From: a virus
Lineage: Duplodnaviria; Caudoviricetes
IMG/VR virus record: IMGVR_UViG_3300016484_000913
Location: 1 to 37,619 of that record
Length of the DNA stretch: 37,619 nt
Strand: one strand, 5' to 3'
How positions within the stretch are numbered: the first letter of the stretch is position 1; each line of letters opens with the position of its first letter. Under the pieces are notes generated by a model. The model ran no database searches and was not told the origin of the DNA. It worked only from the letters and a program-made list of their open reading frames with translations. Made by a program: the position numbers and the translations under genes. Positions 23,894 to 35,856 of this stretch are shown here, piece after piece.

Positions 23894-25369
23894 TCAGGCG
23901 CTTGCGCGCTGCTGCTGGCTCTGAGCTCGGGATGCCCCGCGCTCGACGCTGTTCGCCTTCAGTTGCTCGTACAGTTCGCGGTCGCTGGTGAAGAGCGCTG
24001 CGAGCTCAGGCCCCGTCATGGCCTCGTAAGATTTGCCGTTGTGAGTGAGGATCCCGGCTGCGGATTCCTTCGCCGCTTCGGTCTTGGGCGCAGGCTGCGA
24101 CGTGCCGCTGCCGCTCTTTGACTCGACCTTGAGCGCGACCGGAGCGACGGCGAGGAACGCCTTGAGCTCGGACACCGGGCGCTCTGCCCAAAACGCTTCC
24201 ATGGCTGGGGTGAGCTTGCGGCCTTCGGCGGCTGCCTTGTCCGCAGCCAAGAGCGACGCGCGCTCCTGCGCTTCGAGTTGCTTCGCCTGGGCGTCGATCT
24301 GCGCGGTGAGCGCCGGCACCTGCTCGGCTGCCGCCTGCAGGCCGCGGATGGCGCCGAGCACGGCGTCGGTCGACTCGCTCTTGGTGATGTTTCTGAGCTC
24401 GGCGACGAAGCGCGCGAGCTGGGATACGGCGGTGATCACCGCGCTGTCATCGGCGTCCGCATTCAGGCCCGCCGCTTGTGCAATCAGTTTGATGCTCATG
24501 TCTTGTAACCTCTTGCGGGCGGCAGAGGCCTCCGCAGTTGTCGCCGCAGCTGGTTGCTGCGGAACGCTGTTGGCGCGCGACAGCAGGCCTTCCATCGCCT
24601 CGCGCAGGTCTTCCTTGGTGAGCGGCTCGGCTGACACCTCGTCGCCCTCGGCCGGCTCGTCGTCATCAGCGACGTCGTCGTCGGCCTCGTCTTCGTCGTC
24701 GACTTCCCCCTCGTCGTCTTCGGGCGGAGCGATCGGAACGGTCTCGTCATTCGGTCCGGCGACGAACGCCGGGACGTGCTGGTAGCCGTAGACCGATAGG
24801 TCAAACGACGCGGCGACCTTGGCCTTGCCGGGCACGATCTCGTCGCAGAAGCCTTCGCGCTTCGCCGCTTCCGGCGTCAGCCACGTTTCGGCCGCCATCA
24901 TCTTGCGGCAAGCTGCGGCAGTCTTGCCGGTCCGTGCCGCGTACAGCTGCGCCATGCCGTCGTTGAGCGTTTCGAGCGCGTCCATGGCCTTGCGCAGGTC
25001 CTCGACGCGGCCTTTGACCATGCCCGAAGCGCTGGCCTCGTGGATCATGAGCGCCGAGCCTGTGTGCATGCGGATCGTGTCGCAGCCCATGGCGACGATG
25101 GAGCCTGCACTCGCGGCGAGCCCTTCGACCTCGCACGTCTTTTTCGCGGGGTGCGAGGCAAGCATCGCGCGGATCGCCATGCCGTCGAACGCCGAGCCGC
25201 CTGGGCACGACATGCGGACAGTGATGGTGTTGACGTTGCCGGCGTCGGCTATGGCGCGTGACACGACGTCTGCGCTGATGCCTTCGCCGAACATTCCGGC
25301 GCCGATCGGGCCGTACATGCGCAGCTCCAGCCCCTCGCCGGTGGCGAGTGCTTCGAACTTCTTGGTCAT
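23894..25369 (-). CDS. ClpP-type (S14) head maturation protease fused to scaffold
   Basis: SCPGGSAFDG, GLAASAGS (catalytic Ser), MIHEAS (His), ETWLT...A...GF.DEI; acidic linker; coiled-coil C-half. Confidence 0.92.
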   Translation of the reverse strand: MTKKFEALATGEGLELRMYGPIGAGMFGEGISADVVSRAIADAGNVNTITVRMSCPGGSAFDGMAIRAMLASHPAKKTCEVEGLAASAGSIVAMGCDTIRMHTGSALMIHEASASGMVKGRVEDLRKAMDALETLNDGMAQLYAARTGKTAAACRKMMAAETWLTPEAAKREGFCDEIVPGKAKVAASFDLSVYGYQHVPAFVAGPNDETVPIAPPEDDEGEVDDEDEADDDVADDDEPAEGDEVSAEPLTKEDLREAMEGLLSRANSVPQQPAAATTAEASAARKRLQDMSIKLIAQAAGLNADADDSAVITAVSQLARFVAELRNITKSESTDAVLGAIRGLQAAAEQVPALTAQIDAQAKQLEAQERASLLAADKAAAEGRKLTPAMEAFWAERPVSELKAFLAVAPVALKVESKSGSGTSQPAPKTEAAKESAAGILTHNGKSYEAMTGPELAALFTSDRELYEQLKANSVERGASRAQSQQQRASA

Positions 25370-25496: not shown

Positions 25497-25796
25497 ATGG
25501 CAAACATCTGGAAGCTCAGCGACGGGACGGTCATCACGCAGGACGGCGGCGTCACGTCGGTGACCGGCGACAGCAAAGCCGCGGTAGACCTGCAATCCGA
25601 TCTCGAACTGCAGAAGATGGGCGACCGCATCACGTCTCCGAGCGCGTTCGTGCGTCAGTTGCTTAACCCCGCGGATGCGTGGTCGGTGCACTGCTGGGTG
25701 GCCGAGAAGGCTCGGGAAAACGGCTTGGAGATCACCGAGGAGCCCGACATTGAGAAGCCGGAGCAGTTCAAGACGGTGAAGGGTCGAATCTACTGA
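25497..25796 (+). CDS. Antisense partner (putative immunity protein) of the MuF C-terminal domain
   Basis: 99 aa; paralogue of 27983..28273; 7-nt stop overlap with MuF. Confidence 0.85.
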   Translation: MANIWKLSDGTVITQDGGVTSVTGDSKAAVDLQSDLELQKMGDRITSPSAFVRQLLNPADAWSVHCWVAEKARENGLEITEEPDIEKPEQFKTVKGRIY

Positions 25797-25821
25797 TTCG
25801 CGAGCTGGCCGAGTACGAAGT
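25788..25821. repeat. 34-nt repeat copy 1 spanning the convergent stop codons (copy 2 at 28265-28298)
   Basis: ATCTACTGATTCGCGAG(C/T)TGGCCGAGT(A/G)CGAAGT, 2 mismatches. Confidence 0.9.
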
Positions 25822-27589
25822 GAAACGTGTCCTTGTCCTGCGCGACCACGCGGCCCATTTTCGTCGGATTGTTGAGATGCTCGGTGGTGGTGGCGAGCAA
25901 TTCGGTTGCCTCGCGACCACCAGGGCCTTTGCCCTCGTAGACCTTGCCGGCGAACGGAGTGTGTAGCTTGTCCGGCTGCGCCAACTCGTCGTGGCCGTAC
26001 GCTTCATGATCCTTGAGCGTGTTGAGCTTCACTACCGGCTCGCCCTTGGTTCGGGCCTGCAGGTAGGCGACCGACTTGGCCAGGCGCTCTGGGTTGCGCT
26101 CCTCGATGGCGTGCCCCCACTCGTGCATCACGGCGCTGGTGATCTCGTGTCGATTGGCGGTGCCGCCCGCTCCTAGATTGATGTGCGACCCCTGCTGAAA
26201 CGCTCGATCTTCGTGGTCGGCCGACCAGCGATACCCGGTCGGCTGCTTCAGATCGGCATGCGAGAGAGCGCCGAACGCGGCGGCGGCATCGGCGCGCGCG
26301 CCGCGGAGCTCCACGTGTGGCAGCCTCGCGCCTGCTGCGACTGTAACGTCGTGGTCGAGCCTGATGTCGCCTGCCCGGTCGTTCCCGAGCGCGCGGTGAT
26401 GAGCCGCGATAGCGATCGTGGCCTCGAACTCGGCCACCTTCTTGCGCTCCATGTCGGCCAACATGGGGTTTTTCTTCGGAGCGTTGGCCGATGCCTTGGC
26501 GGCGTCGATCAGCGAGCCTGCGTCCGCGTGCCCGTCCTTGAGCAGTTTCGCGTGCATCGGCGACGTGCGGATGTCGTAGACGTCCACGCCGGCAGCCTTG
26601 AGCGCGTCCACCGACTCGTGCAGCTGCTCCGGGGTGAGCGCGCGGCCCTGGTGTTCCATCGCGCGACCCCACGCAACCGTGCTCGCAGCCTCTCCGTACT
26701 GCGCCTTGAGCTCGGCCTCGTGATGGGCCGGGTCATGCAGCGGTGAGGCGTACGAGCCGCTACCGGAGCGCCCAGACGTCCACTGCCCGCCCTTGGACGA
26801 GCCGGCTGGGACGCGGGGCTGTCCGCTCGCAAACTTGGCCTCGAGCGCGAGCTCGGTGTCGGCCGACTTACGGCGGCGCTTCTTCGCCGCCCGCGCACGC
26901 ATCGACTCCTGCTTGCGCGTGTACTCGCGCGCGAGGTGGTGGTCGTACTTGGCGAGATCGGGGTGCCACATCGCGCCCGCTCGGAGCGGCGGGGCAAGAC
27001 CCCAGTCACCGGCGATGTCAGGCCGCGGCGCTTCGCGTGTCGGACCGCCAGCCCGCTTGACCATGCGGTCGCTGAGAGCGCGTACGGCGGATCGGCAGCG
27101 ATGGTGGGAGGGTGGCCAGTGAGTCAGCCACCATGGATCGTCATGCCGGCGGATCGTGCCTGTGAGAGACCGGCAAACCCGCGTCGTACTCTGATCGAGC
27201 ACGGCGTCGTACCGAAGATACTTCAACACCTTGGTCACTTCTGGCTTGTTCATCTGCCAGTAGCGGCCCGTGTTGTAGGCCATCTGGTTCGCGTTGATGA
27301 ACGCCGTCGTCAGGTTCGTCGCGTTCTTCTCAGTGAACCGCTTCCCGAGCTTCTCTTTGATCGCCTTTCGCCACGCGTCTATCGCCGTGCCGTTGTCGAT
27401 GGCTTTGGCGATCTCGTCGAATACGGCCTGGACGACCTCAAGCTGCTGCGTGCCAGCGAGCACGAATGCCTGCCGGCGCTCGGCAACCGTCAGTTGCTCC
27501 CACTCGTCGCGGGTGACCGGGACGCGACCGCGGAACCAGTCGGAGGCTTCCCGGAAGCGCGCGGGGTCTGCGGGGGCTTTCTTGGGCAC
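25790..27589 (-). CDS. MuF/gpF (SPP1 gp7-like) head morphogenesis protein with C-terminal HExxH zincin-like effector domain
   Basis: AYNTGRY, YDAVLD..TT.VC..L.G, DDPWW..HWPP.H.RCRS MuF motifs; then QPRVPAGSSKGGQW; C-terminal HEWGH...GKVY...TE. Confidence 0.92.
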   Translation of the reverse strand: MPKKAPADPARFREASDWFRGRVPVTRDEWEQLTVAERRQAFVLAGTQQLEVVQAVFDEIAKAIDNGTAIDAWRKAIKEKLGKRFTEKNATNLTTAFINANQMAYNTGRYWQMNKPEVTKVLKYLRYDAVLDQSTTRVCRSLTGTIRRHDDPWWLTHWPPSHHRCRSAVRALSDRMVKRAGGPTREAPRPDIAGDWGLAPPLRAGAMWHPDLAKYDHHLAREYTRKQESMRARAAKKRRRKSADTELALEAKFASGQPRVPAGSSKGGQWTSGRSGSGSYASPLHDPAHHEAELKAQYGEAASTVAWGRAMEHQGRALTPEQLHESVDALKAAGVDVYDIRTSPMHAKLLKDGHADAGSLIDAAKASANAPKKNPMLADMERKKVAEFEATIAIAAHHRALGNDRAGDIRLDHDVTVAAGARLPHVELRGARADAAAAFGALSHADLKQPTGYRWSADHEDRAFQQGSHINLGAGGTANRHEITSAVMHEWGHAIEERNPERLAKSVAYLQARTKGEPVVKLNTLKDHEAYGHDELAQPDKLHTPFAGKVYEGKGPGGREATELLATTTEHLNNPTKMGRVVAQDKDTFHFVLGQLANQ

Positions 27590-27614: not shown

Positions 27615-27857
27615 TTACTTTGACGCATACTCGGCAGATGTTTGAGCGCTCTCACAGGCAATGGCCTGGTTTGCGGTCATCACCACCTCGCGGATCTTAC
27701 GAACCGCGCAGGTTTGGTCTGCCGATGGCGCCGTGCACGCCAAAATCACCTCCGCAAAGGCCTTCCCGGCATCCCGGATGCGAATATAGCGTTCCTGTTG
27801 GCCAGGCTGCGGCGCGTGGTAGACGAACCAGTTGTCCAGGTCTGTTTGAGTGATCAT
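27615..27857 (-). CDS. Acb2/Tad1-like hairpin protein (putative anti-defence nucleotide-signal sponge)
   Basis: ATG 27857 with GAGGAAG SD; WF.YHAP..GQ.ERY..IR..GK.FA..I....PS.D...A.RK.RE.VM.AN.AIA pattern. Confidence 0.7.
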   Translation of the reverse strand: MITQTDLDNWFVYHAPQPGQQERYIRIRDAGKAFAEVILACTAPSADQTCAVRKIREVVMTANQAIACESAQTSAEYASK

Positions 27858-27969
27858 TTCTTCCTCGAACGCCACACGAACCACCATGACAGGAGAATCC
27901 ACGACGTCTATTTCCTCTCTCATCCCTGCGATCAGCGAGAGCGTGCTCGCTTGGGCACGTAGGCAGGCG

Positions 27970-27975
27970 TAGGAT
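27970..27975 (+). promoter_or_regulatory. -10-like TAGGAT 7 nt before ATG 27983; leaderless promoter candidate
   Basis: Mirrors TAGGCT before the paralogous gene. Confidence 0.45.
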
Positions 27976-27982
27976 GCGGTCC

Positions 27983-28273
27983 ATGAAATGGACGATCTCA
28001 GATGGTACGACCGTGCAACTTGGCGGGAACGTCAGCGGAAAGGGCAAGGTCGCCGTCGCGCTGCGAGCCGACATCGCGGCAACGGCTCGTGGGGAGGCGG
28101 TGTTGGTAAACGTCTACCCTGAGCCCGCCGGATCCGAGGAGCTCAACCTGTCCAACCCGCTTCACGTACACCTATGGGTGGCCGATGCGGCGCGCTTGGC
28201 CGGCGAGACTGTGACCGATGCGCCCGAGATCGAGATCCCGGAAAGCGAATCGGACCCAGACGAGATCTACTGA
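27983..28273 (+). CDS. Antisense partner (putative immunity protein) of the portal C-terminal domain
   Basis: Paralogue of 25497..25796 (W..SDGT, K.AV.L..D, VH.WVA..AR..G, P.IE.PE, IY*); 7-nt stop overlap; alternative start 27974. Confidence 0.85.
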   Translation: MKWTISDGTTVQLGGNVSGKGKVAVALRADIAATARGEAVLVNVYPEPAGSEELNLSNPLHVHLWVADAARLAGETVTDAPEIEIPESESDPDEIY

Positions 28274-28298
28274 TTCGCGAGTTGGCCGAGTGCGAAGT
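28265..28298. repeat. 34-nt repeat copy 2 spanning the convergent stop codons
   Basis: Matches 25788-25821. Confidence 0.9.
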
Positions 28299-31200
28299 TC
28301 ACGGTGTCGGGGTCACGTTTGTTGATTCGCGAGATGATCCTGTTGTCGTGCATGAACTGCACGCCCATGGACGTCACCTCGGTCGCATACCGGCCCTTGT
28401 GCTCGGCGTAGCCCTTTTCGCCTTTACTGCCAGAGTAGACCTTGCCCACGTACGGGTGCCAGAACTCGTCCTCCTGCGTGACCTCGTGCTTCTTGTAGCG
28501 CGCATCGCCGGTCAGTTTGGACATCTTCTTCGGCAGTGCGCCTTTGGCACGGGCCTCGATGAACTCGACCGACTTGGCCGTGAGGCGCGGGTTCGCGGCC
28601 TCTAGCACATGCGCCCACTCGTGGATCGCGGTGCCCTTGTGATGAGATAGGGATGCGTCCTTTAGCCCGACGCCTAGATTGACCGTGCGTTTGGCTGGGC
28701 TGGCAGCGCCACGCAGTCGCTCGTTCGCGTGCCAGGCATAGTCGGTCGGATGCACCAACGACTGATGGCTCATCGCGCCGTAAAACGCGCTCGCCTCGTC
28801 GACGATTCCTTGGGCTTGCTTCGCTGAGATCTTCGAGCCTGTCGTGTGCGTCAGCGTTCCGAGCGTTGCCACGCTCGACCGTTGACCGTCCAGCGCCTGG
28901 TGGTGCGCGGCCAGCTTCGAACTGATGGCGATGCGGTCTGCGATGCCCGGGCGCGTGGCGCGGAGTTTGTCTTCGAGCTCGCCAGCGGTCTTTGCTTTGA
29001 CGCTGCCGATCAGCGCTTTGTGCTCTCGATGGTCGAATACGCCGACGCCAGATGCTTTGAGCATGTCGACGCGGGCATGGTACTCCCGCATGGGCATATC
29101 GCGGCCGCGCGCTGCCATGGCGTGCCCCCACGCTACGGTGCTAGCGGCCTCGCCATACTGCGCCTTGAGCCGCTGCGCGTGATGCGCTGGATCATGCTCG
29201 GGTTTGGGTGGCGCGGGCCTTGATCTCTTGGCCGCTGCGGGCTTTTTTTTTGACGCCGCCTGACGCGTCGAAGCCTTCTTCTTCGCCGCCTTACGCGGCT
29301 TGGCAGCGGCTGGCTTGGCGGACGAATCGCCGCCAGCCTTGCGCTTGGCGGCTTTGCGCTTGGCGGCGGGCTTCTTCGCGACCTTGGCCTTTGCCGCAGG
29401 CTTCTTGGCGGCCTTCTTCTTCGGGGCGCCCTTGGGCGCTGCCGCCTTCTTGCGGGCGGCCTTCGGCTTTGCCCCTGCCGCAGCTCCACCGCCGCCACCA
29501 GCGGCTTTCTTGGCGCCGCCTGGTGCCTTCTTGGCCTTGGTCGCCGAGCCTGCCGAGCCGTTCTTGGGCATGAATTGGCCGCCCTTGCTCGACCCGGCAG
29601 GGTAGTGCTGGACGGCGGCCGTGAGGTCGGGAAAGAGTTCGGTCTGCCGCGCGTCGACAGACGGCTCGGCGTCTTCGGGCAGGTCTTCGAGCACGGAGTG
29701 GCGGCCTGACAGATTCGCCAACACGAGCCCGGCGTGCACGATGTCAGCCAGCTGATCGGGGTCTGCCTCGGCCTGGAATGCCTTCAGCACGGCGTGCCGG
29801 ATCGATTCGTAGTCCTCGGCGCCGTCGATGGCGGCCGTGATCCGCGCAACCATGCCCGTCAGGTTGTCAGCCGCGCGCGAGACGCAGCGCTCGCTCAGGT
29901 CGTCGACGTAGAGCTGGCCGTGCACGAATCCCGGAGCTTCGTCCGGGTCGTCACCGCTGGCGAGGTATACGCCCGCGGCAGAAGCTTCCGACGTCGGGTC
30001 ATCCTCGACCGCGTCTGCGCCGTCGGCTGCAGCGTCATCTTCAGCCGGTTCCTCGTCCTCGACAGGTGCACCGCCGCCGTCGGGATCCTCAGGGTCCGGC
30101 TCCTCCTCGTGCTCCTCCAGTACGACGCCGTATTCCTCCTCGATGGTTTCAAGCGGCAGCTTGTAGCCAGCCGTCTTGAGCCCCGTCAGCGCGTCGGCCA
30201 ACGTCTTGAGTCCCGCCGCCTTTTCGGCGAAATCCTCCGGCGGCTCGGTATGCCAGAACGGGTACGCCGCGAAGTCGCGCGTGCCGAAATTGAACTCCGA
30301 CCACCAGGAAAGGGACTGGAGCTTGATCGGCTTTGCGATCATCCAGGCCGCATTGCGGACGCGACGGTTCTCTTTCTTGTCGTGAACTTGGGCCGCTGCG
30401 CGCGAGCCCTCCTGCACGTTCGTCGAGAGGTTCTGCCCGAGGATCGCGATTGACGCGGCCTCGTCCGCCATGCGGATCTGCGCGCCGTAGATCTGGTCGA
30501 CGTTCGCGTTGGTCTCGATCAGCTTCAGGTCGAAGCCGATCGGCAACGCGATCACGGCGTCTTTGCCGGCCTCGTAGATGTAGTTCGCGACGGCCTCACG
30601 CTCGTCGGCCGTGCTCTCCGGGCTGGCAGTGGCGACGAGTTTCGCGGACTTCTCGGAGTGAATCCCCGCGTCTTGCTGCGCGTATTGCTTGAGCAGCCAC
30701 CACGCGCCGAGCCCGCGCCACAGGCCGTTTGCCCACGGCCGCCACTCGCCACCCTTCGTGACGATCACCCAAGTGCCGTCACCGGCTGCGATAGGAGTCC
30801 AGCGCTCAGTCCCAGGCTCGCGCACGTGCCATGAGTGGTGGCGCTGGTCTCCGGTATGCGGGTGGCCGTCTTTGACGCGCCACGAGAAATGCTGCGGGTG
30901 CCACCACTTGAGCGCCGGAACAACGCGACCACTATCGGTCTCGCGCCATGCCTCGTGCTTCGCGAATCCAACGCCGGTGACGAGCGTCCAGGCGATCAGG
31001 TTGCGCAGCTCGTCGTCGTCGTAGCCGACCTCCCAATCGGCTTCGAGCTCGGCGCTCTTAGGCGCTGAGCCAACCGACGTGCGGAGCGAACGTTCGAACG
31101 TCAGGTCACAGCCAAGCACGTCGTCAGCGAGCTGACCGAGCAGCGCGCCGAATCGGTCATCGGCCATGATGCAGTCGCACAGATTGGCGAGCAGCGCCAT

Positions 31201-31344
31201 GTCGCCAGCATCCGCCCGGCGGAGCACCTGACGCAGCAGCGCAGGCGTCCACAGCACTCCCTGACGCGGCGACGGCGCGCTGATAGGCACCGACGCTTCA
31301 CGCGGCACAGCGCGCAGAGCAGCTGATTTCGCGGACTTGGACAT
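28267..31344 (-). CDS. Portal protein (Mu gp29/DUF935-like) fused to Lys/Ala-rich linker and C-terminal HExxH zincin-like effector domain
   Basis: L..AD.GD, ILGQNLST...GSRAAAQVH portal motifs; follows terL; ~470-aa extension with PAGSSKGGQF, KKAA/KKPAA repeats, HEWAH...PYVGKVY...TEVTSMG. Confidence 0.92.
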   Translation of the reverse strand: MSKSAKSAALRAVPREASVPISAPSPRQGVLWTPALLRQVLRRADAGDMALLANLCDCIMADDRFGALLGQLADDVLGCDLTFERSLRTSVGSAPKSAELEADWEVGYDDDELRNLIAWTLVTGVGFAKHEAWRETDSGRVVPALKWWHPQHFSWRVKDGHPHTGDQRHHSWHVREPGTERWTPIAAGDGTWVIVTKGGEWRPWANGLWRGLGAWWLLKQYAQQDAGIHSEKSAKLVATASPESTADEREAVANYIYEAGKDAVIALPIGFDLKLIETNANVDQIYGAQIRMADEAASIAILGQNLSTNVQEGSRAAAQVHDKKENRRVRNAAWMIAKPIKLQSLSWWSEFNFGTRDFAAYPFWHTEPPEDFAEKAAGLKTLADALTGLKTAGYKLPLETIEEEYGVVLEEHEEEPDPEDPDGGGAPVEDEEPAEDDAAADGADAVEDDPTSEASAAGVYLASGDDPDEAPGFVHGQLYVDDLSERCVSRAADNLTGMVARITAAIDGAEDYESIRHAVLKAFQAEADPDQLADIVHAGLVLANLSGRHSVLEDLPEDAEPSVDARQTELFPDLTAAVQHYPAGSSKGGQFMPKNGSAGSATKAKKAPGGAKKAAGGGGGAAAGAKPKAARKKAAAPKGAPKKKAAKKPAAKAKVAKKPAAKRKAAKRKAGGDSSAKPAAAKPRKAAKKKASTRQAASKKKPAAAKRSRPAPPKPEHDPAHHAQRLKAQYGEAASTVAWGHAMAARGRDMPMREYHARVDMLKASGVGVFDHREHKALIGSVKAKTAGELEDKLRATRPGIADRIAISSKLAAHHQALDGQRSSVATLGTLTHTTGSKISAKQAQGIVDEASAFYGAMSHQSLVHPTDYAWHANERLRGAASPAKRTVNLGVGLKDASLSHHKGTAIHEWAHVLEAANPRLTAKSVEFIEARAKGALPKKMSKLTGDARYKKHEVTQEDEFWHPYVGKVYSGSKGEKGYAEHKGRYATEVTSMGVQFMHDNRIISRINKRDPDTVNFALGQLANQ

Positions 31345-31548: not shown

Positions 31549-31961
31549 ACGCGCCGATCATCGACTGGCACGCTGGCACTGTTGGGGCCAGCCCATTCCC
31601 ACGCGTCGACGAGATCGAGACGCGGGTCAGAGCCGTCGCTCGGGACAACCGGGAGATGGCCGAGCTCTGCAACCTCCTAGAGGCCGAGCTCAGGGCGCAG
31701 GGCGGGCTCCGCGTCCAGCTGGCCAATGTCGAGCGCGAGCGCGACGCGGCGCTGGAGGTCGCGACGCCGCTGTTGGCGCTCTGCCAGCAGCAGCACGAAG
31801 AGATCGAGCAGCTGCGCGCTCAGCTGGCCGCGCTCGTGGAGCAGCGCGACAGGCTGGCGGCTGCTGCTACCGAGCTGTGTGAGGATGTCGAGCGGCGCGA
31901 TCCGGATGGTCGGACGCGCAAGTTGGCCTGCAACGCGAGAAGGGCGGTGCTGGGGATCTAA
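31545..31961 (+). CDS. Coiled-coil moron protein between terL and portal
   Basis: ATG 31545 with GGAGGT SD; heptad-rich; convergent overlap with the terL stop. Confidence 0.75.
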   Translation: MNAPIIDWHAGTVGASPFPRVDEIETRVRAVARDNREMAELCNLLEAELRAQGGLRVQLANVERERDAALEVATPLLALCQQQHEEIEQLRAQLAALVEQRDRLAAAATELCEDVERRDPDGRTRKLACNARRAVLGI

Positions 31962-33439
31962 CTCCACCGCCCACCACTGCGCGTCGGGATCTCCACGCCG
32001 CCGCCACCAGCGAGCGCTGCGTCCACCGCGGCGACCAGAGCGTCCACCTGGTCGTCGTGGAGGTCCTTGACGCCAGTGAATGACGTCACCTCGTCAACGA
32101 ACACGTCGACCCACGGATAGGCCTCGCTGTCAGCTGGGACGAGGATGCGGCCGGCGTTCCAGTGCTCTGACGTCGTCTGCGCGCGGGTGAACTTGTCCCG
32201 CCCCTTCGGATCAAGCACCATCAGCGGGATGCCCTTGGCCTTGATGAACTGCGCCGAGCCCTTTTCGGTACCAGACGCGTACCACCAGAACTTGCCGCCA
32301 CGCTGCGACGACTTCGCGCGCAACGTGAGTGCAAATGCAGGCGCTTCCACCTGTTTGCGCTGGACGTCTACGACGTAGAAACGCCAGTCATCCGGTGATG
32401 CGCCAACTCCGCGGGCTGGTGGCACCGCCCAGACTTCGACGCAAACGCTGAAGTCGGCGTGCGTCTTCTCGGTGTACGAGAGGTCGACGCCAAAAGAGAC
32501 CTTGAATCCGTGCTCAGGGAGCTCCGACCAGTAGGTTGGCTCGCGGAAAAGGCTGCCACCGCGTGGGCGCGGCTCGCCCTGGTACATCGAGGCGAAGTTC
32601 CATTCGTTGGAGCGGCGTCGTTCGAGCCAATACTCAAGCGGGCGCTTCGACGGCCACAACGGGTCACCTGGTTGGCGGTTGTCGCCTTCCGGGATGTGGT
32701 TATCCGCGATCGCTTTGATGTTGATGTACGTGAAGCCGAGTTCGTTGACGAGGTACCCGACGAGGTCGTCTGGATGCCAGCGCGTCATCATCGCAATGAT
32801 CGAGCCGCCAGGATGGACACGCGTCTCAGCTACCGAGTGGTACCAGTCCTTGTGGTTCTGGCGAATCGTTGGCGATTCGGCTTCCTTGCGGTCCTTGAGC
32901 GGGTCATCGATGACCAAGACGCCGTCGATAGGCTCACCGGTCAGCGCGCCGCCAACAGACGTCCAGAGCGTTTGGCCGCCGTCCTTCGTGCGCCACAGGC
33001 CTAGGTTTGCTGTGTCGAGTTCAACGCCTGCGCGCGCGGCAATGCCAGCAGCATCGCGGCCAACACGTTGCGCGCGGTCGCCTGAGTAGGTAGCGTAAGC
33101 GTTGCGGTAGCGCGGGTGCTTCAACGCCCACCACGCAAAGGCATGCTCCGTAGACTGGGACTTGCCAACCTGTGGAGGCGCCGAGAAGCAAATACGCAGC
33201 CCACCACCCGGCGCGCGCTGCAAGACGTCGACGTACGGAGTCAGGTGACGGGGAGACTCCCACCGAGGAGTTACCCTCGGGATGAAGTCCATCAGCGGTT
33301 CAGTGAATTCCGCCTTCGGTTTGCCCGCTCGAACCGCTTGAAGCCTCGCTCTCGCCTTCTCCTCCAGCGAGGTACTCTTCGAGGACCAACTCGAAAATTT
33401 CTGGTTGAGAAAGCCTCTCTGCGACCCGTTGGACGACAT
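31958..33439 (-). CDS. terL: Terminase large subunit
   Basis: APPQVGKS Walker A, LVIDDP Walker B, MTRWH.DDL, YQGEP, GVDLS, HDDQVDA nuclease motifs; alternative start ATG 33292. Confidence 0.96.
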   Translation of the reverse strand: MSSNGSQRGFLNQKFSSWSSKSTSLEEKARARLQAVRAGKPKAEFTEPLMDFIPRVTPRWESPRHLTPYVDVLQRAPGGGLRICFSAPPQVGKSQSTEHAFAWWALKHPRYRNAYATYSGDRAQRVGRDAAGIAARAGVELDTANLGLWRTKDGGQTLWTSVGGALTGEPIDGVLVIDDPLKDRKEAESPTIRQNHKDWYHSVAETRVHPGGSIIAMMTRWHPDDLVGYLVNELGFTYINIKAIADNHIPEGDNRQPGDPLWPSKRPLEYWLERRRSNEWNFASMYQGEPRPRGGSLFREPTYWSELPEHGFKVSFGVDLSYTEKTHADFSVCVEVWAVPPARGVGASPDDWRFYVVDVQRKQVEAPAFALTLRAKSSQRGGKFWWYASGTEKGSAQFIKAKGIPLMVLDPKGRDKFTRAQTTSEHWNAGRILVPADSEAYPWVDVFVDEVTSFTGVKDLHDDQVDALVAAVDAALAGGGGVEIPTRSGGRWS

Positions 33440-34277: not shown

Positions 34278-34903
34278 GCCGCGCGCGCCTCCTTCTCCAA
34301 CTGCTCCGCCTGTCGGCAGCACTTCGCCAGCGCCATCGCACGCTCCTCGGCCGCCTTCGCTCTTGGCTGTGCCTTGTGCACCGCCGCGATGACTTCGAGC
34401 CGCTGCGGCGCTGGGATCTGGATTGCATTGGGCTCTGCGCTGGCAGCCGCGACCAACGCGCGGCCCTTGTCGGTCAGGTGGTACAGAGCTCCAACACGGC
34501 CATGCCCGGTGGTGCCGAGCGCCCAGCGGTTGCCCGATTCCCCGAAATACAGGGCCAGCACCGTGGCCGACAACTGCGACCGGCGCTCGACCAGCATCAC
34601 CAACCGGCTGACATGAGCATACCGTTCGAGCACGCGGTCGTCGGGGACGTAGCCGCTGACCTCGTGCGTCTCCGCCGTCGGGCGCGCAGTGATGGCACTG
34701 CGGTGCCCGATGCATACACCGGCCGCGGTGAGCACCGGTTCCATCGGCCAGGTGTACGTGACCGATCCGAACGCCTCCGCGCGCTCCAACATGCCGCCCA
34801 TCGTCGAGCGCTCGAACGCAGTCTGACCGGGGCCGAAGTACCAGAGCAGGTCGGACTCGTCGCGCGGCGAATACTGCGGCACTGGAGCGTGGCTGGCCGT
34901 CAT
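34247..34903 (-). CDS. Hypothetical protein (218 aa), possible late regulator
   Basis: ATGA-coupled to the bEBP stop; position only. Confidence 0.7.
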   Translation of the reverse strand: MTASHAPVPQYSPRDESDLLWYFGPGQTAFERSTMGGMLERAEAFGSVTYTWPMEPVLTAAGVCIGHRSAITARPTAETHEVSGYVPDDRVLERYAHVSRLVMLVERRSQLSATVLALYFGESGNRWALGTTGHGRVGALYHLTDKGRALVAAASAEPNAIQIPAPQRLEVIAAVHKAQPRAKAAEERAMALAKCCRQAEQLEKEARAAWHDAKLQLG

Positions 34904-35856
34904 TCAGCAGCCTCTCGCTGTGAATCCCGGTCCCATCTCTTGAGCATCTCAACCAGCGTGGTGCGATGGAGCCCGAGCATTCGAGCAGCCTTGGCCTTTT
35001 CCCCGCCAGCGATCACCAGCGCACGCCGCACGCAGTCGCGCTCCAGACTGGAGAGCATAGGACGGAGATTCACAGGGAGCGTCACCAACGTCTGAGCACC
35101 ATAAACGTCTTCCTCGGGTAGATCGGAACGGCCGATCTGGCCTTCGGCGCGAGTGATGACGGCGGACTCGATGACGTTTCGGAGTTGGCGGATGTTGCCG
35201 GGCCAGCACCTGCCCCGCAGATCTTCCAGCGCGCGGTCACTGATGCCTGTGACTTTGCGGCCGTGGAGACTGTTGAGTTCTTCGAGAAACTGCCGCGCTA
35301 GGTCATCGATATCCTCGGCGCGAGCTCGCAACGGCGGCACCGTCACTACATACGCGCTGATGCGATGGTACAGGTCGAGGCGGAATCGACCGTCGGCTGC
35401 CAGCGCAGGAAGGTCCCCGTGCGTCGCGCAGATGACCCGGACGTCGATGCGACGAGGCTGGGCGCTCCCTACGCGGGTCACTGTCCTGGATTCCAGAATG
35501 CGCAGTAACTTGGCCTGCTGCGACAGCGGCATGTCGCCGATCTCGTCTAGGAAAATGGTCCCGCCGTGCGCCACCTCAAACGCTCCACATCTTGCGGACG
35601 TGGCCCCCGTGAATGCGCCGCGCTCGTGCCCAAAGAGCTCGCTCTCAAGTAACGGCTCGGGGATGGCAGCACAGCTGACCGGCACGAATGGAAGGTTCGA
35701 GCGGGGACTGGCGGAGTGAATCGCGCGTGCGAGGACATCCTTCCCAGTACCGGTCTCACCTCGCAGCAGCACCGAGCAAGACGTGTCCGCCACGCGGTTG
35801 GCCGCGGTCAAAGCGGACATCATGGCCACGGACCGACTGACGATCCCGAGGGTCAC
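34900..35856 (-). CDS. Sigma54-dependent enhancer-binding protein (AAA+ plus Fis HTH) lacking an N-terminal sensory domain
   Basis: GETGTGKD, ESELFGHERGAFTGA, FLDEIGDM, FRLDLYHRI, WPGNIRQL, AARMLGLHRTTL. Confidence 0.96.
   Translation of the reverse strand: MTLGIVSRSVAMMSALTAANRVADTSCSVLLRGETGTGKDVLARAIHSASPRSNLPFVPVSCAAIPEPLLESELFGHERGAFTGATSARCGAFEVAHGGTIFLDEIGDMPLSQQAKLLRILESRTVTRVGSAQPRRIDVRVICATHGDLPALAADGRFRLDLYHRISAYVVTVPPLRARAEDIDDLARQFLEELNSLHGRKVTGISDRALEDLRGRCWPGNIRQLRNVIESAVITRAEGQIGRSDLPEEDVYGAQTLVTLPVNLRPMLSSLERDCVRRALVIAGGEKAKAARMLGLHRTTLVEMLKRWDRDSQREAAE

What the first reader, a model, noticed from the sequence alone, without database searches (positions are those of the whole stretch)
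28267..29700. Portal protein with a ~470-aa cargo extension
The DUF935-like portal appears to finish near LSGRHSVLEDL (~aa 555), but the frame continues through a linker, PAGSSKGGQF, a basic tract and the zincin domain, with no MuF domain in between. Portals are dodecamers whose C-termini face the capsid interior, so this could load up to 12 effectors at the ejection channel (inference).
Basis: partly seen in the sequence, partly recalled or inferred. Interest (0 to 1): 0.8.

Follow-up and report, generated by a model that had tools for sequence, protein, structure and literature searches.

The report
Swappable protease cargo on phage portal

Summary
The fusion is real. ORF 28267-31344(-) is a Mu-type portal (ends at about aa 555) followed by a header peptide, a Lys/Ala tract and an HExxH zincin, with no MuF domain. 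Contigs from three other studies bridge the junction in frame, and 16 of 24 listed substitutions in the extension are synonymous. The extension is a swappable module. 7 of 46 clade portals are extended, needing at least 5 gains or losses, with different cargos; all 7 carry the header peptide, and the two nearest sisters are short. The same zincin sits on this phage's MuF and on an unrelated portal family. An unnamed ~100-aa gene follows it in 22 of 39 cases and has its own promoter-like signal when inverted (7 of 8). Mu's virion portal lacks the homologous tail, so the cargo is probably cut free, not held at the channel. Portal-effector fusions and MuF metallopeptidase toxins are already in print. 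The scan noted a similar tag on other DNA. I found no paper on the tag or the partner family. Verdict: new variant of a known kind; packaging, cleavage, activity and inhibition untested.

The parts
28267..31344 (-). Portal-cargo fusion ORF, 1025 aa
   Evidence: junction bridged in runs X3, X5, X6
30124..31182 (-). Mu-type portal core, aa 55-407 (PF06074)
   Evidence: E=1.8e-40; clade profile hits Mu portal 9khx at E=1.9e-5
29965..30123 (-). Acidic linker, aa 408-460 (22 D/E, no K/R); candidate region for a head-protease cut (inferred)
   Evidence: Mu comparison
29680..29964 (-). C-terminal portal domain, aa 461-555, homologous to the Mu gp29 tail; normal end of the protein in relatives
   Evidence: 21.4 bits to Mu gp29 452-511 against 4.8 for the best of 500 shuffles
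29572..29601 (-). Header peptide PAGSSKGGQF, aa 582-591
   Evidence: pattern present in 7 of 7 extended and 0 of 39 short clade portals, shuffle rate 0.4% (pattern written after seeing the sequences)
29203..29568 (-). Lys/Ala-rich basic tract, aa 593-714; likely DNA-binding (inferred)
   Evidence: 42 K/R, 1 D/E; in-frame length variants in relatives
28270..29202 (-). Zincin (gluzincin-type) metallopeptidase domain, aa 715-1025; H908, E909, H912, E989
   Evidence: invariant in 58 of 58 aligned; model pLDDT 95.7; best fold matches Z 7.5, 7.2, 6.6
27983..28273 (+). Partner gene 1 (96 aa from ATG 27983; 99 aa from 27974), convergent, stop overlaps the portal stop by 7 nt
   Evidence: 6 of 7 listed substitutions synonymous
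27970..27975 (+). TAGGAT, -10-like hexamer 7 nt before ATG 27983 (leaderless-promoter signature, predicted)
25790..27589 (-). MuF minor head protein (599 aa) with the same header peptide (aa 261-270) and a paralogous zincin
   Evidence: PF04233; 38% identity over 330 aa, E=7e-46
25497..25796 (+). Partner gene 2 (99 aa), convergent on the MuF zincin; TAGGCT 6 nt before its start
   Evidence: 37% identical to partner 1, E=2e-15
23894..25369 (-). ClpP-like prohead protease/scaffold, the candidate releasing enzyme (inferred)
   Evidence: PF00574, NF045542 above cut-off
27615..27923 (-). Acb2/Tad1-like gene between the two cassettes; absent from at least one near relative
   Evidence: PF24729 E=1.3e-11; loose end in X6 equals the MuF start

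Best explanation
The portal gene carries an exchangeable C-terminal module (header peptide, basic tract, zinc-metallopeptidase domain) that is likely built into the prohead with the portal ring, likely cut free by the phage's head protease, and likely injected with the DNA to cleave a host protein, while the small gene behind it likely encodes its inhibitor. Shown here: the fusion, its conservation in frame, repeated exchange of cargos at this position, an intact metal-binding motif, and the tight linkage with the partner gene. Inferred: packaging (from portal biology), release (from Mu), retention on DNA through the basic tract, ejection, a host target, and inhibition by the partner. When inverted, the partner has a predicted promoter of its own and so would be made outside the late operon, which suits self-protection or exclusion of related phages.
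For: Fusion real and under selection. 7 of 46 clade portals extended, at least 5 changes forced by well-supported branches; sisters P0194 (73%) and P0200 (72%) are short. Cargos differ: GNAT (PF13673 above cut-off), kinase-like (PF00454 E=2.5e-5, below cut-off), another HExxH domain, a basic tract with a small domain, and two ART-like domains (motif reading recalled; no Pfam hit). A GNAT cargo is 51% identical between portal P0011 and the MuF of L003. Of the 150 best zincin relatives, 62 carry PF04233 MuF and 3 carry a portal without MuF; four loci have it on the unrelated PF06381 portal. H908, E909, H912, E989 invariant in 58 of 58; fold among gluzincins. Partner family lies directly behind 22 of 39 distinct zincins (22 of the 24 closest) and in none of 139 zincin-free loci; identities co-vary (rho 0.48). 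TAnnnT lies 6-7 nt before the start in 7 of 8 convergent and 1 of 14 same-strand partners, background 0.6%. Mu virion portal lacks its last 124 residues (PMC11915804), homologous to the domain before the cargo. A related zincin of phage PaV-LD is annotated 'virion structural protein' (basis not seen).
Against: No particle, proteome, transcript or activity data. The Mu tail could be missing from the map through disorder; the authors say 'may' be cleaved. No cleavage motif was established here: residues before the tag vary. Fold Z scores under 8 may reflect only a common arrangement. Iyer 2017 proposes autoprocessing as a main role for such phage zincins. Linkage and co-variation of neighbours follow from co-inheritance and do not show inhibition. 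17 of 39 zincins lack a detectable member of the partner family. MuF cargos in L003 and most of the 150 hits have no match to the tag pattern, so the tag is not required for every cargo. Host and lifestyle are unknown; the record is about 77% complete.
Confidence: 0.5

Rival explanations
1. The zincin is a processing peptidase for the phage's own head proteins: it cuts itself, the portal tail or other tagged cargos during maturation or after entry, and the small protein is a regulator or chaperone.
For: Iyer 2017 (PMC5512222, passages) argues for autoproteolytic roles from P1 DdrB and N4 vRNAP. Some relatives carry the zincin last in multi-cargo chains (P0033, P0036, L085).
Against: Here the zincin is the only enzyme-like domain in the extension, so there is little to release. 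Sister portals and many MuFs assemble without it. It is interchangeable with GNAT and kinase-like domains at the same position. The phage has a dedicated prohead protease.
Confidence: 0.25
2. The cargo acts in the producing cell, or stays fused on the portal: it shields the portal or packaging machinery from host sensors during assembly and is never injected.
For: Iyer 2022 (PMC9503650, passages) raises this alternative for head-associated ARTs. An Acb2/Tad1-like counter-defence gene lies in the same late cluster.
Against: The same cargo on MuF, a head protein, and the basic tract fit packaging better. The homologous tail is missing in Mu virions.
Confidence: 0.16
3. The module is a mobile protease-partner cassette that lands behind head genes and is tolerated, with no role in infection (selfish or addiction-like element).
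For: Scattered gains and losses; partner with its own predicted promoter; the two window copies are not each other's nearest relatives in a quick tree, on unstarred branches.
Against: All detected carriers are head proteins. In-frame fusion with tag and basic tract is kept under selection. Unrelated enzymes use the same slot.
Confidence: 0.08
4. Assembly error, or the extension is not translated as part of the portal.
For: No RNA or protein data. An in-frame Met follows the tag (aa 592).
Against: Three independent studies bridge the junction in frame; six other clade portals show the same layout; that Met is not conserved in them.
Confidence: 0.01

Closest known systems
MuF polymorphic toxins (Jamet et al. 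2017, PMC5576092; passages and section 7 read; Zhang et al. 2012, PMC3482391, passages)
   Same: Head-module protein with a variable C-terminal enzyme (20% of 191 MuF toxins are metallopeptidases) followed by a small ORF (89.4% under 150 aa) read as immunity. The window's MuF gene has this layout.
   Different: The carrier here is the portal, with no MuF domain; the partner is on the opposite strand with its own predicted promoter; a header peptide and basic tract precede the cargo; temperate lifestyle not shown.
Phage-type polyvalent proteins and portal-fused effectors (Iyer et al. 2017, PMC5512222; Iyer et al. 2022, PMC9503650; passages)
   Same: PBECR, 2H, InPase, Nudix and ART domains fused to portal or MuF and predicted to be packaged; zincin-like MPTase is the commonest domain of the class.
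   Different: In the passages seen, no portal-MPTase fusion, no header peptide, no cognate small partner and no exchange series within one portal clade are described. The paper's supplementary files were not read and may list such fusions.
Phage Mu portal gp29 (Zhou et al. 2025, PMC11915804, passages; author name recalled)
   Same: Homologous portal core and C-terminal helical domain; dodecamer; tail absent from the virion map.
   Different: Mu gp29 is 512 aa with nothing behind the tail; this phage's protease is ClpP-like.
Gluzincins of the PPEP / lethal-factor-type fold
   Same: HExxH plus downstream Glu; best structural matches 1yqy (Z 7.5, rmsd 3.5, 153 aligned), PPEP-3 (Z 7.2, 3.7, 146), PPEP-2 (Z 6.6, 3.6, 141).
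   Different: 12-13% identity, no sequence-level match in the PDB, Foldseek nothing under E 0.001. The first ~110 residues are barely covered by the matches. Fold likeness gives no substrate.

Membership tests
Mu-type portal (PF06074) | Portal_Mu domain above the curated cut-off, downstream of the large terminase | tested here: met
   139.8 bits against 23.9; terminase at 31958-33439
MuF polymorphic toxin (portal ORF) | N-terminal MuF domain | tested here: not met
   No MuF hit in Pfam, PHROGs or NCBIfam on the 1025-aa protein; it can work like one without being one
MuF polymorphic toxin (neighbour 25790-27589) | MuF domain plus C-terminal enzyme plus small downstream ORF | tested here: met
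   PF04233 53 bits; zincin; 99-aa convergent ORF
Polymorphic toxin system | Variable C-terminal domains on a conserved carrier | tested here: met
   7 of 46 clade portals extended, at least 5 changes, different cargos
Polymorphic toxin system | Cargo is toxic and neutralised by the adjacent gene | not testable with these tools
   Only linkage, co-variation and a promoter signature were measured
Polymorphic toxin system (MuF type) | Encoded by a temperate phage | tested here: inconclusive
   No integrase or transposase among 36 ORFs scanned; record about 77% complete
Zincin (gluzincin) metallopeptidase | HExxH helix plus conserved downstream Glu in a zincin fold | tested here: met
   H908, E909, H912, E989 invariant in 58 of 58; fold matches
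Polyvalent-protein MPTase clades (Iyer 2017) | Membership of one of the 12 published clades | tested here: inconclusive
   No Pfam hit on this domain; nearest Atlas cluster auto-named 'DdrB domain protein', score 0.95; the paper's profiles were not available
Head-protease-released portal tail (Mu) | Cleavage upstream of the C-terminal domain | not testable with these tools
   Homology to Mu's missing tail shown; cleavage itself needs virion proteomics

The most novel reading that the evidence does not exclude
The portal C-terminus is a general, stoichiometric (12 per head) loading dock for a polymorphic effector system: a short header peptide marks modules that swap among MuF and at least two unrelated portal families, and an unnamed protein family, switched on from its own leaderless promoter, plugs the incoming zinc protease with its conserved C-terminal tyrosine, giving carriers immunity to virion-delivered proteases of related phages.
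Probability: 0.25. Interest if true: 0.8.

Novelty: new variant of a known kind. Interest (0 to 1): 0.55.

Why it matters
How phages carry proteins into the cell with their DNA is known for few models. If the reading holds, the portal tail is a fixed-copy loading site with a recognisable tag, the zincin is a candidate first-strike protease against a host or rival-phage protein, and the partner is a new protease-inhibitor family. The protease-partner pair is small, folds confidently in prediction, and can be tested in a laboratory strain; cultured phages carry the MuF version of a related zincin (Lactococcus phage 62503, Flavobacterium phage pippi8-1).

Tried and rejected
Complex prediction of zincin with partner was not available, so binding is untested. 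No RNA holder listed. Partner fold: model pLDDT 89.6 but no match in BFVD (best E 0.22) or among 48,161 solved chains (best Z 3.4); no Pfam, PHROG or NCBIfam family; no match in isolated phages; Atlas gave only unnamed viral clusters at 0.90-0.91. Small ORFs behind the zincins of three cultured phages did not score with the partner profile, so they are at best distant or analogous. Zincin: no PDB sequence match, no Foldseek match, no locus from a single-sequence scan. An internal start at Met592 was rejected as a general explanation because it is not conserved. A head-protease consensus before the tag was looked at by eye only and not established. Literature: searches returned no paper describing the header peptide or the partner family; the library lacks most subscription papers, and supplements of Iyer 2017 and Jamet 2017 were not read. 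The JBD30 paper (PMC11445458, passages) said nothing on portal-tail cleavage; the KS10 paper (PMC2628397, passages) gave only the Grimaud 1996 reference, which I did not read. The PaV-LD paper is not held.

Full report
Setting. The window is a linear virus record of 37,619 bases, about 77% complete. Its minus strand holds a head module: large terminase, portal, an Acb2/Tad1-like gene, MuF, ClpP-like protease/scaffold and capsid, then tail genes. Host and lifestyle are unknown.

ORF 28267-31344(-) is 1025 aa. Portal_Mu covers aa 55-407 and PHROG 113 reaches aa 557; nothing MuF-like hits it. Of 77 distinct closed portals from fetched loci that reach the C-terminal helical domain, 76 stop within 40 residues of it. 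The extension is an acidic linker, PAGSSKGGQF (582-591), a 122-aa tract with 42 K/R and 1 D/E, and a 311-aa HExxH domain. Contigs from three studies other than the possible source bridge the junction without a frameshift (X3; X5 and X6). Of the substitutions the tool listed (40 of 178 and 40 of 47), 16 of 24 in the extension and 12 of 18 in the zincin are synonymous, against 0.24 expected, with no stops. Indels seen in the basic tract are multiples of three.

The extension is a swappable module. Two searches gave 45 clade proteins, and locus L045 added one; both searches scored only about 8,000 candidates, so the set is a sample. 7 of these 46 carry more than 150 residues behind the portal end. 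A maximum-likelihood tree of the portal part needs 5 gains or losses, all forced by well-supported branches; the direction is not determined. The two nearest relatives, 73% and 72% identical, are short. Cargos differ: a GNAT (PF13673 above cut-off), a kinase-like domain (PF00454, E=2.5e-5, below cut-off), another HExxH domain whose relation to this zincin I did not test, a basic tract with a small domain, and two domains I read as ART-like from recalled motifs (no Pfam hit). All 7 have the header peptide 24-35 residues after the portal end; 0 of 39 short portals have it; shuffles give 0.4%. The pattern was written after seeing the sequences. Five of the 7 have a clearly basic stretch behind it.

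Cargo moves between carriers. The window's MuF has the same peptide and a zincin 38% identical to the portal's. The GNAT on portal P0011 is 51% identical to the cargo on the MuF of L003, which lacks the tag. Of the best 150 of 1,391 zincin relatives, 62 have PF04233 MuF (one of them also a portal) and 3 have a portal without MuF, two PF06381 and one PF06074. Loci L085, L089 and L095 are PF06381 portals with tag and zincin, and L086 matches P0036 in layout. In a quick tree the window's two zincins are not sisters, on unstarred branches, so a recent local duplication is not indicated.

The zincin looks intact. H908, E909, H912, E915, R932 and E989 are invariant in 58 of 58 aligned sequences. The model has pLDDT 95.7. 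The best structural matches are gluzincins: 1yqy Z 7.5, PPEP-3 Z 7.2, PPEP-2 Z 6.6, at 12-13% identity over residues ~110-311. These Z values are middling and give no substrate.

Each zincin in the window is met head-on by a ~99-aa plus-strand gene whose stop overlaps by 7 nt; the two are 37% identical. 6 of 7 listed substitutions in partner 1 are synonymous. Across 210 loci, 22 of 39 distinct zincins have a family member directly behind them (16 same strand, 6 convergent; 22 of the 24 closest), and none of the 139 loci without a zincin holds one. Several more distant zincins are followed by other small ORFs ending in a similar acidic tail and Tyr. The last residue is Tyr in 18 of 22 partners. 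Identities of the two proteins co-vary (rho 0.48, p=2e-4), which co-inheritance alone would also give. A TAnnnT hexamer stands 6-7 nt before the start in 7 of 8 convergent partners and 1 of 14 same-strand ones, against 0.6% of all start-like triplets (up to a few candidate starts per gene were allowed). This is the pattern of leaderless sigma-70-type promoters (established knowledge, recalled), and implies expression apart from the late operon. The family has no database name or fold match (see Tried and rejected). Binding could not be modelled.

How it likely works. The Mu portal is a dodecamer whose last 124 residues are absent from the virion map, read by the authors as probable cleavage by protease I (PMC11915804, passages). 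A profile of this family's C-terminal domain matches Mu gp29 452-511 at 21.4 bits against 4.8 for the best of 500 shuffles. The cargo therefore hangs behind a part that Mu appears to shed. I infer that up to 12 copies enter the prohead with the portal ring, are cut free by the ClpP-like protease, stay with the DNA through the basic tract, and are ejected to cut a host protein, with the partner as inhibitor (0.5). The main rival is a processing role on the phage's own proteins (0.25), as Iyer 2017 proposes for such domains. What the header peptide does is unknown; loading cannot be its only job here, since the portal already supplies that. A related zincin in phage PaV-LD is annotated as a virion structural protein, but I could not see the basis.

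Compared with what is known. MuF toxins with metallopeptidase cargo and small downstream genes are published (Jamet 2017; Zhang 2012). Portal fusions to PBECR, 2H, InPase, Nudix and ART domains are published as predictions (Iyer 2017, 2022). The portal ORF is not a MuF toxin, since it has no MuF domain, but probably works like one. Searches found no description of the header peptide or the partner family. Earlier notes of this scan report a header tag on portal and MuF cargos in other phages and a GNAT-partner pairing; their letters are withheld, so identity with this peptide is likely but unchecked, and they are not independent evidence.

Verdict. Real, selected and more structured than first noted; a new variant of a known kind. 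Interest 0.55.

Noticed in passing
window 27615-27923 (-): Acb2/Tad1-like gene (PF24729). In near relative X6 the MuF start follows directly at 27950, so this counter-defence gene looks like a recent insertion or loss between the two cassettes.
   Followed up: partly
P0014, P0015, P0017, P0019, P0183, P0187 (last ~55 aa): Short clade portals end in a small helical tail finishing LGQL-x-Q/S, like the zincin's last residues LGQLANQ. Remnant of a deleted cargo, a C-terminal signal, or chance.
   Followed up: no
window portal aa 461-464 and protease 23894-25369 aa 8-11; L003 8600-10066: LA[ST]G occurs at the start of the portal's C-terminal domain (L461, A462 invariant in 23 of 23) and at the protease N-terminus; possible shared cut site, but it also occurs in L004, whose protease looks to be of another type.
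   Followed up: no
P0033, P0036, P0037, P0041, P0045, L085, L089, L095: In the PF06381-portal lineage the header peptide is preceded by an R-x-D motif, whereas this clade has L-x-A-like residues; the upstream motif may follow the head-protease type.
   Followed up: no
L213 4359-6881 (Planktothrix phage PaV-LD): Two tandem stand-alone zincins of this family, one annotated as virion structural protein, followed by a 91-aa gene ending in DIVY.
   Followed up: partly
window 34900-35856 (-): Sigma-54-dependent activator (AAA+ with Fis HTH) upstream of the terminase genes; possible late-gene regulator and host clue.
   Followed up: no
P0027, P0028: Mu-type portals with an N-terminal XRE helix-turn-helix domain.
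   Followed up: no
L004 3969-6572; P0053, P0067, P0155, P0166: Intein-like insertions in a large terminase (by eye) and in MuF-zincin proteins (Pfam intein hits).
   Followed up: no
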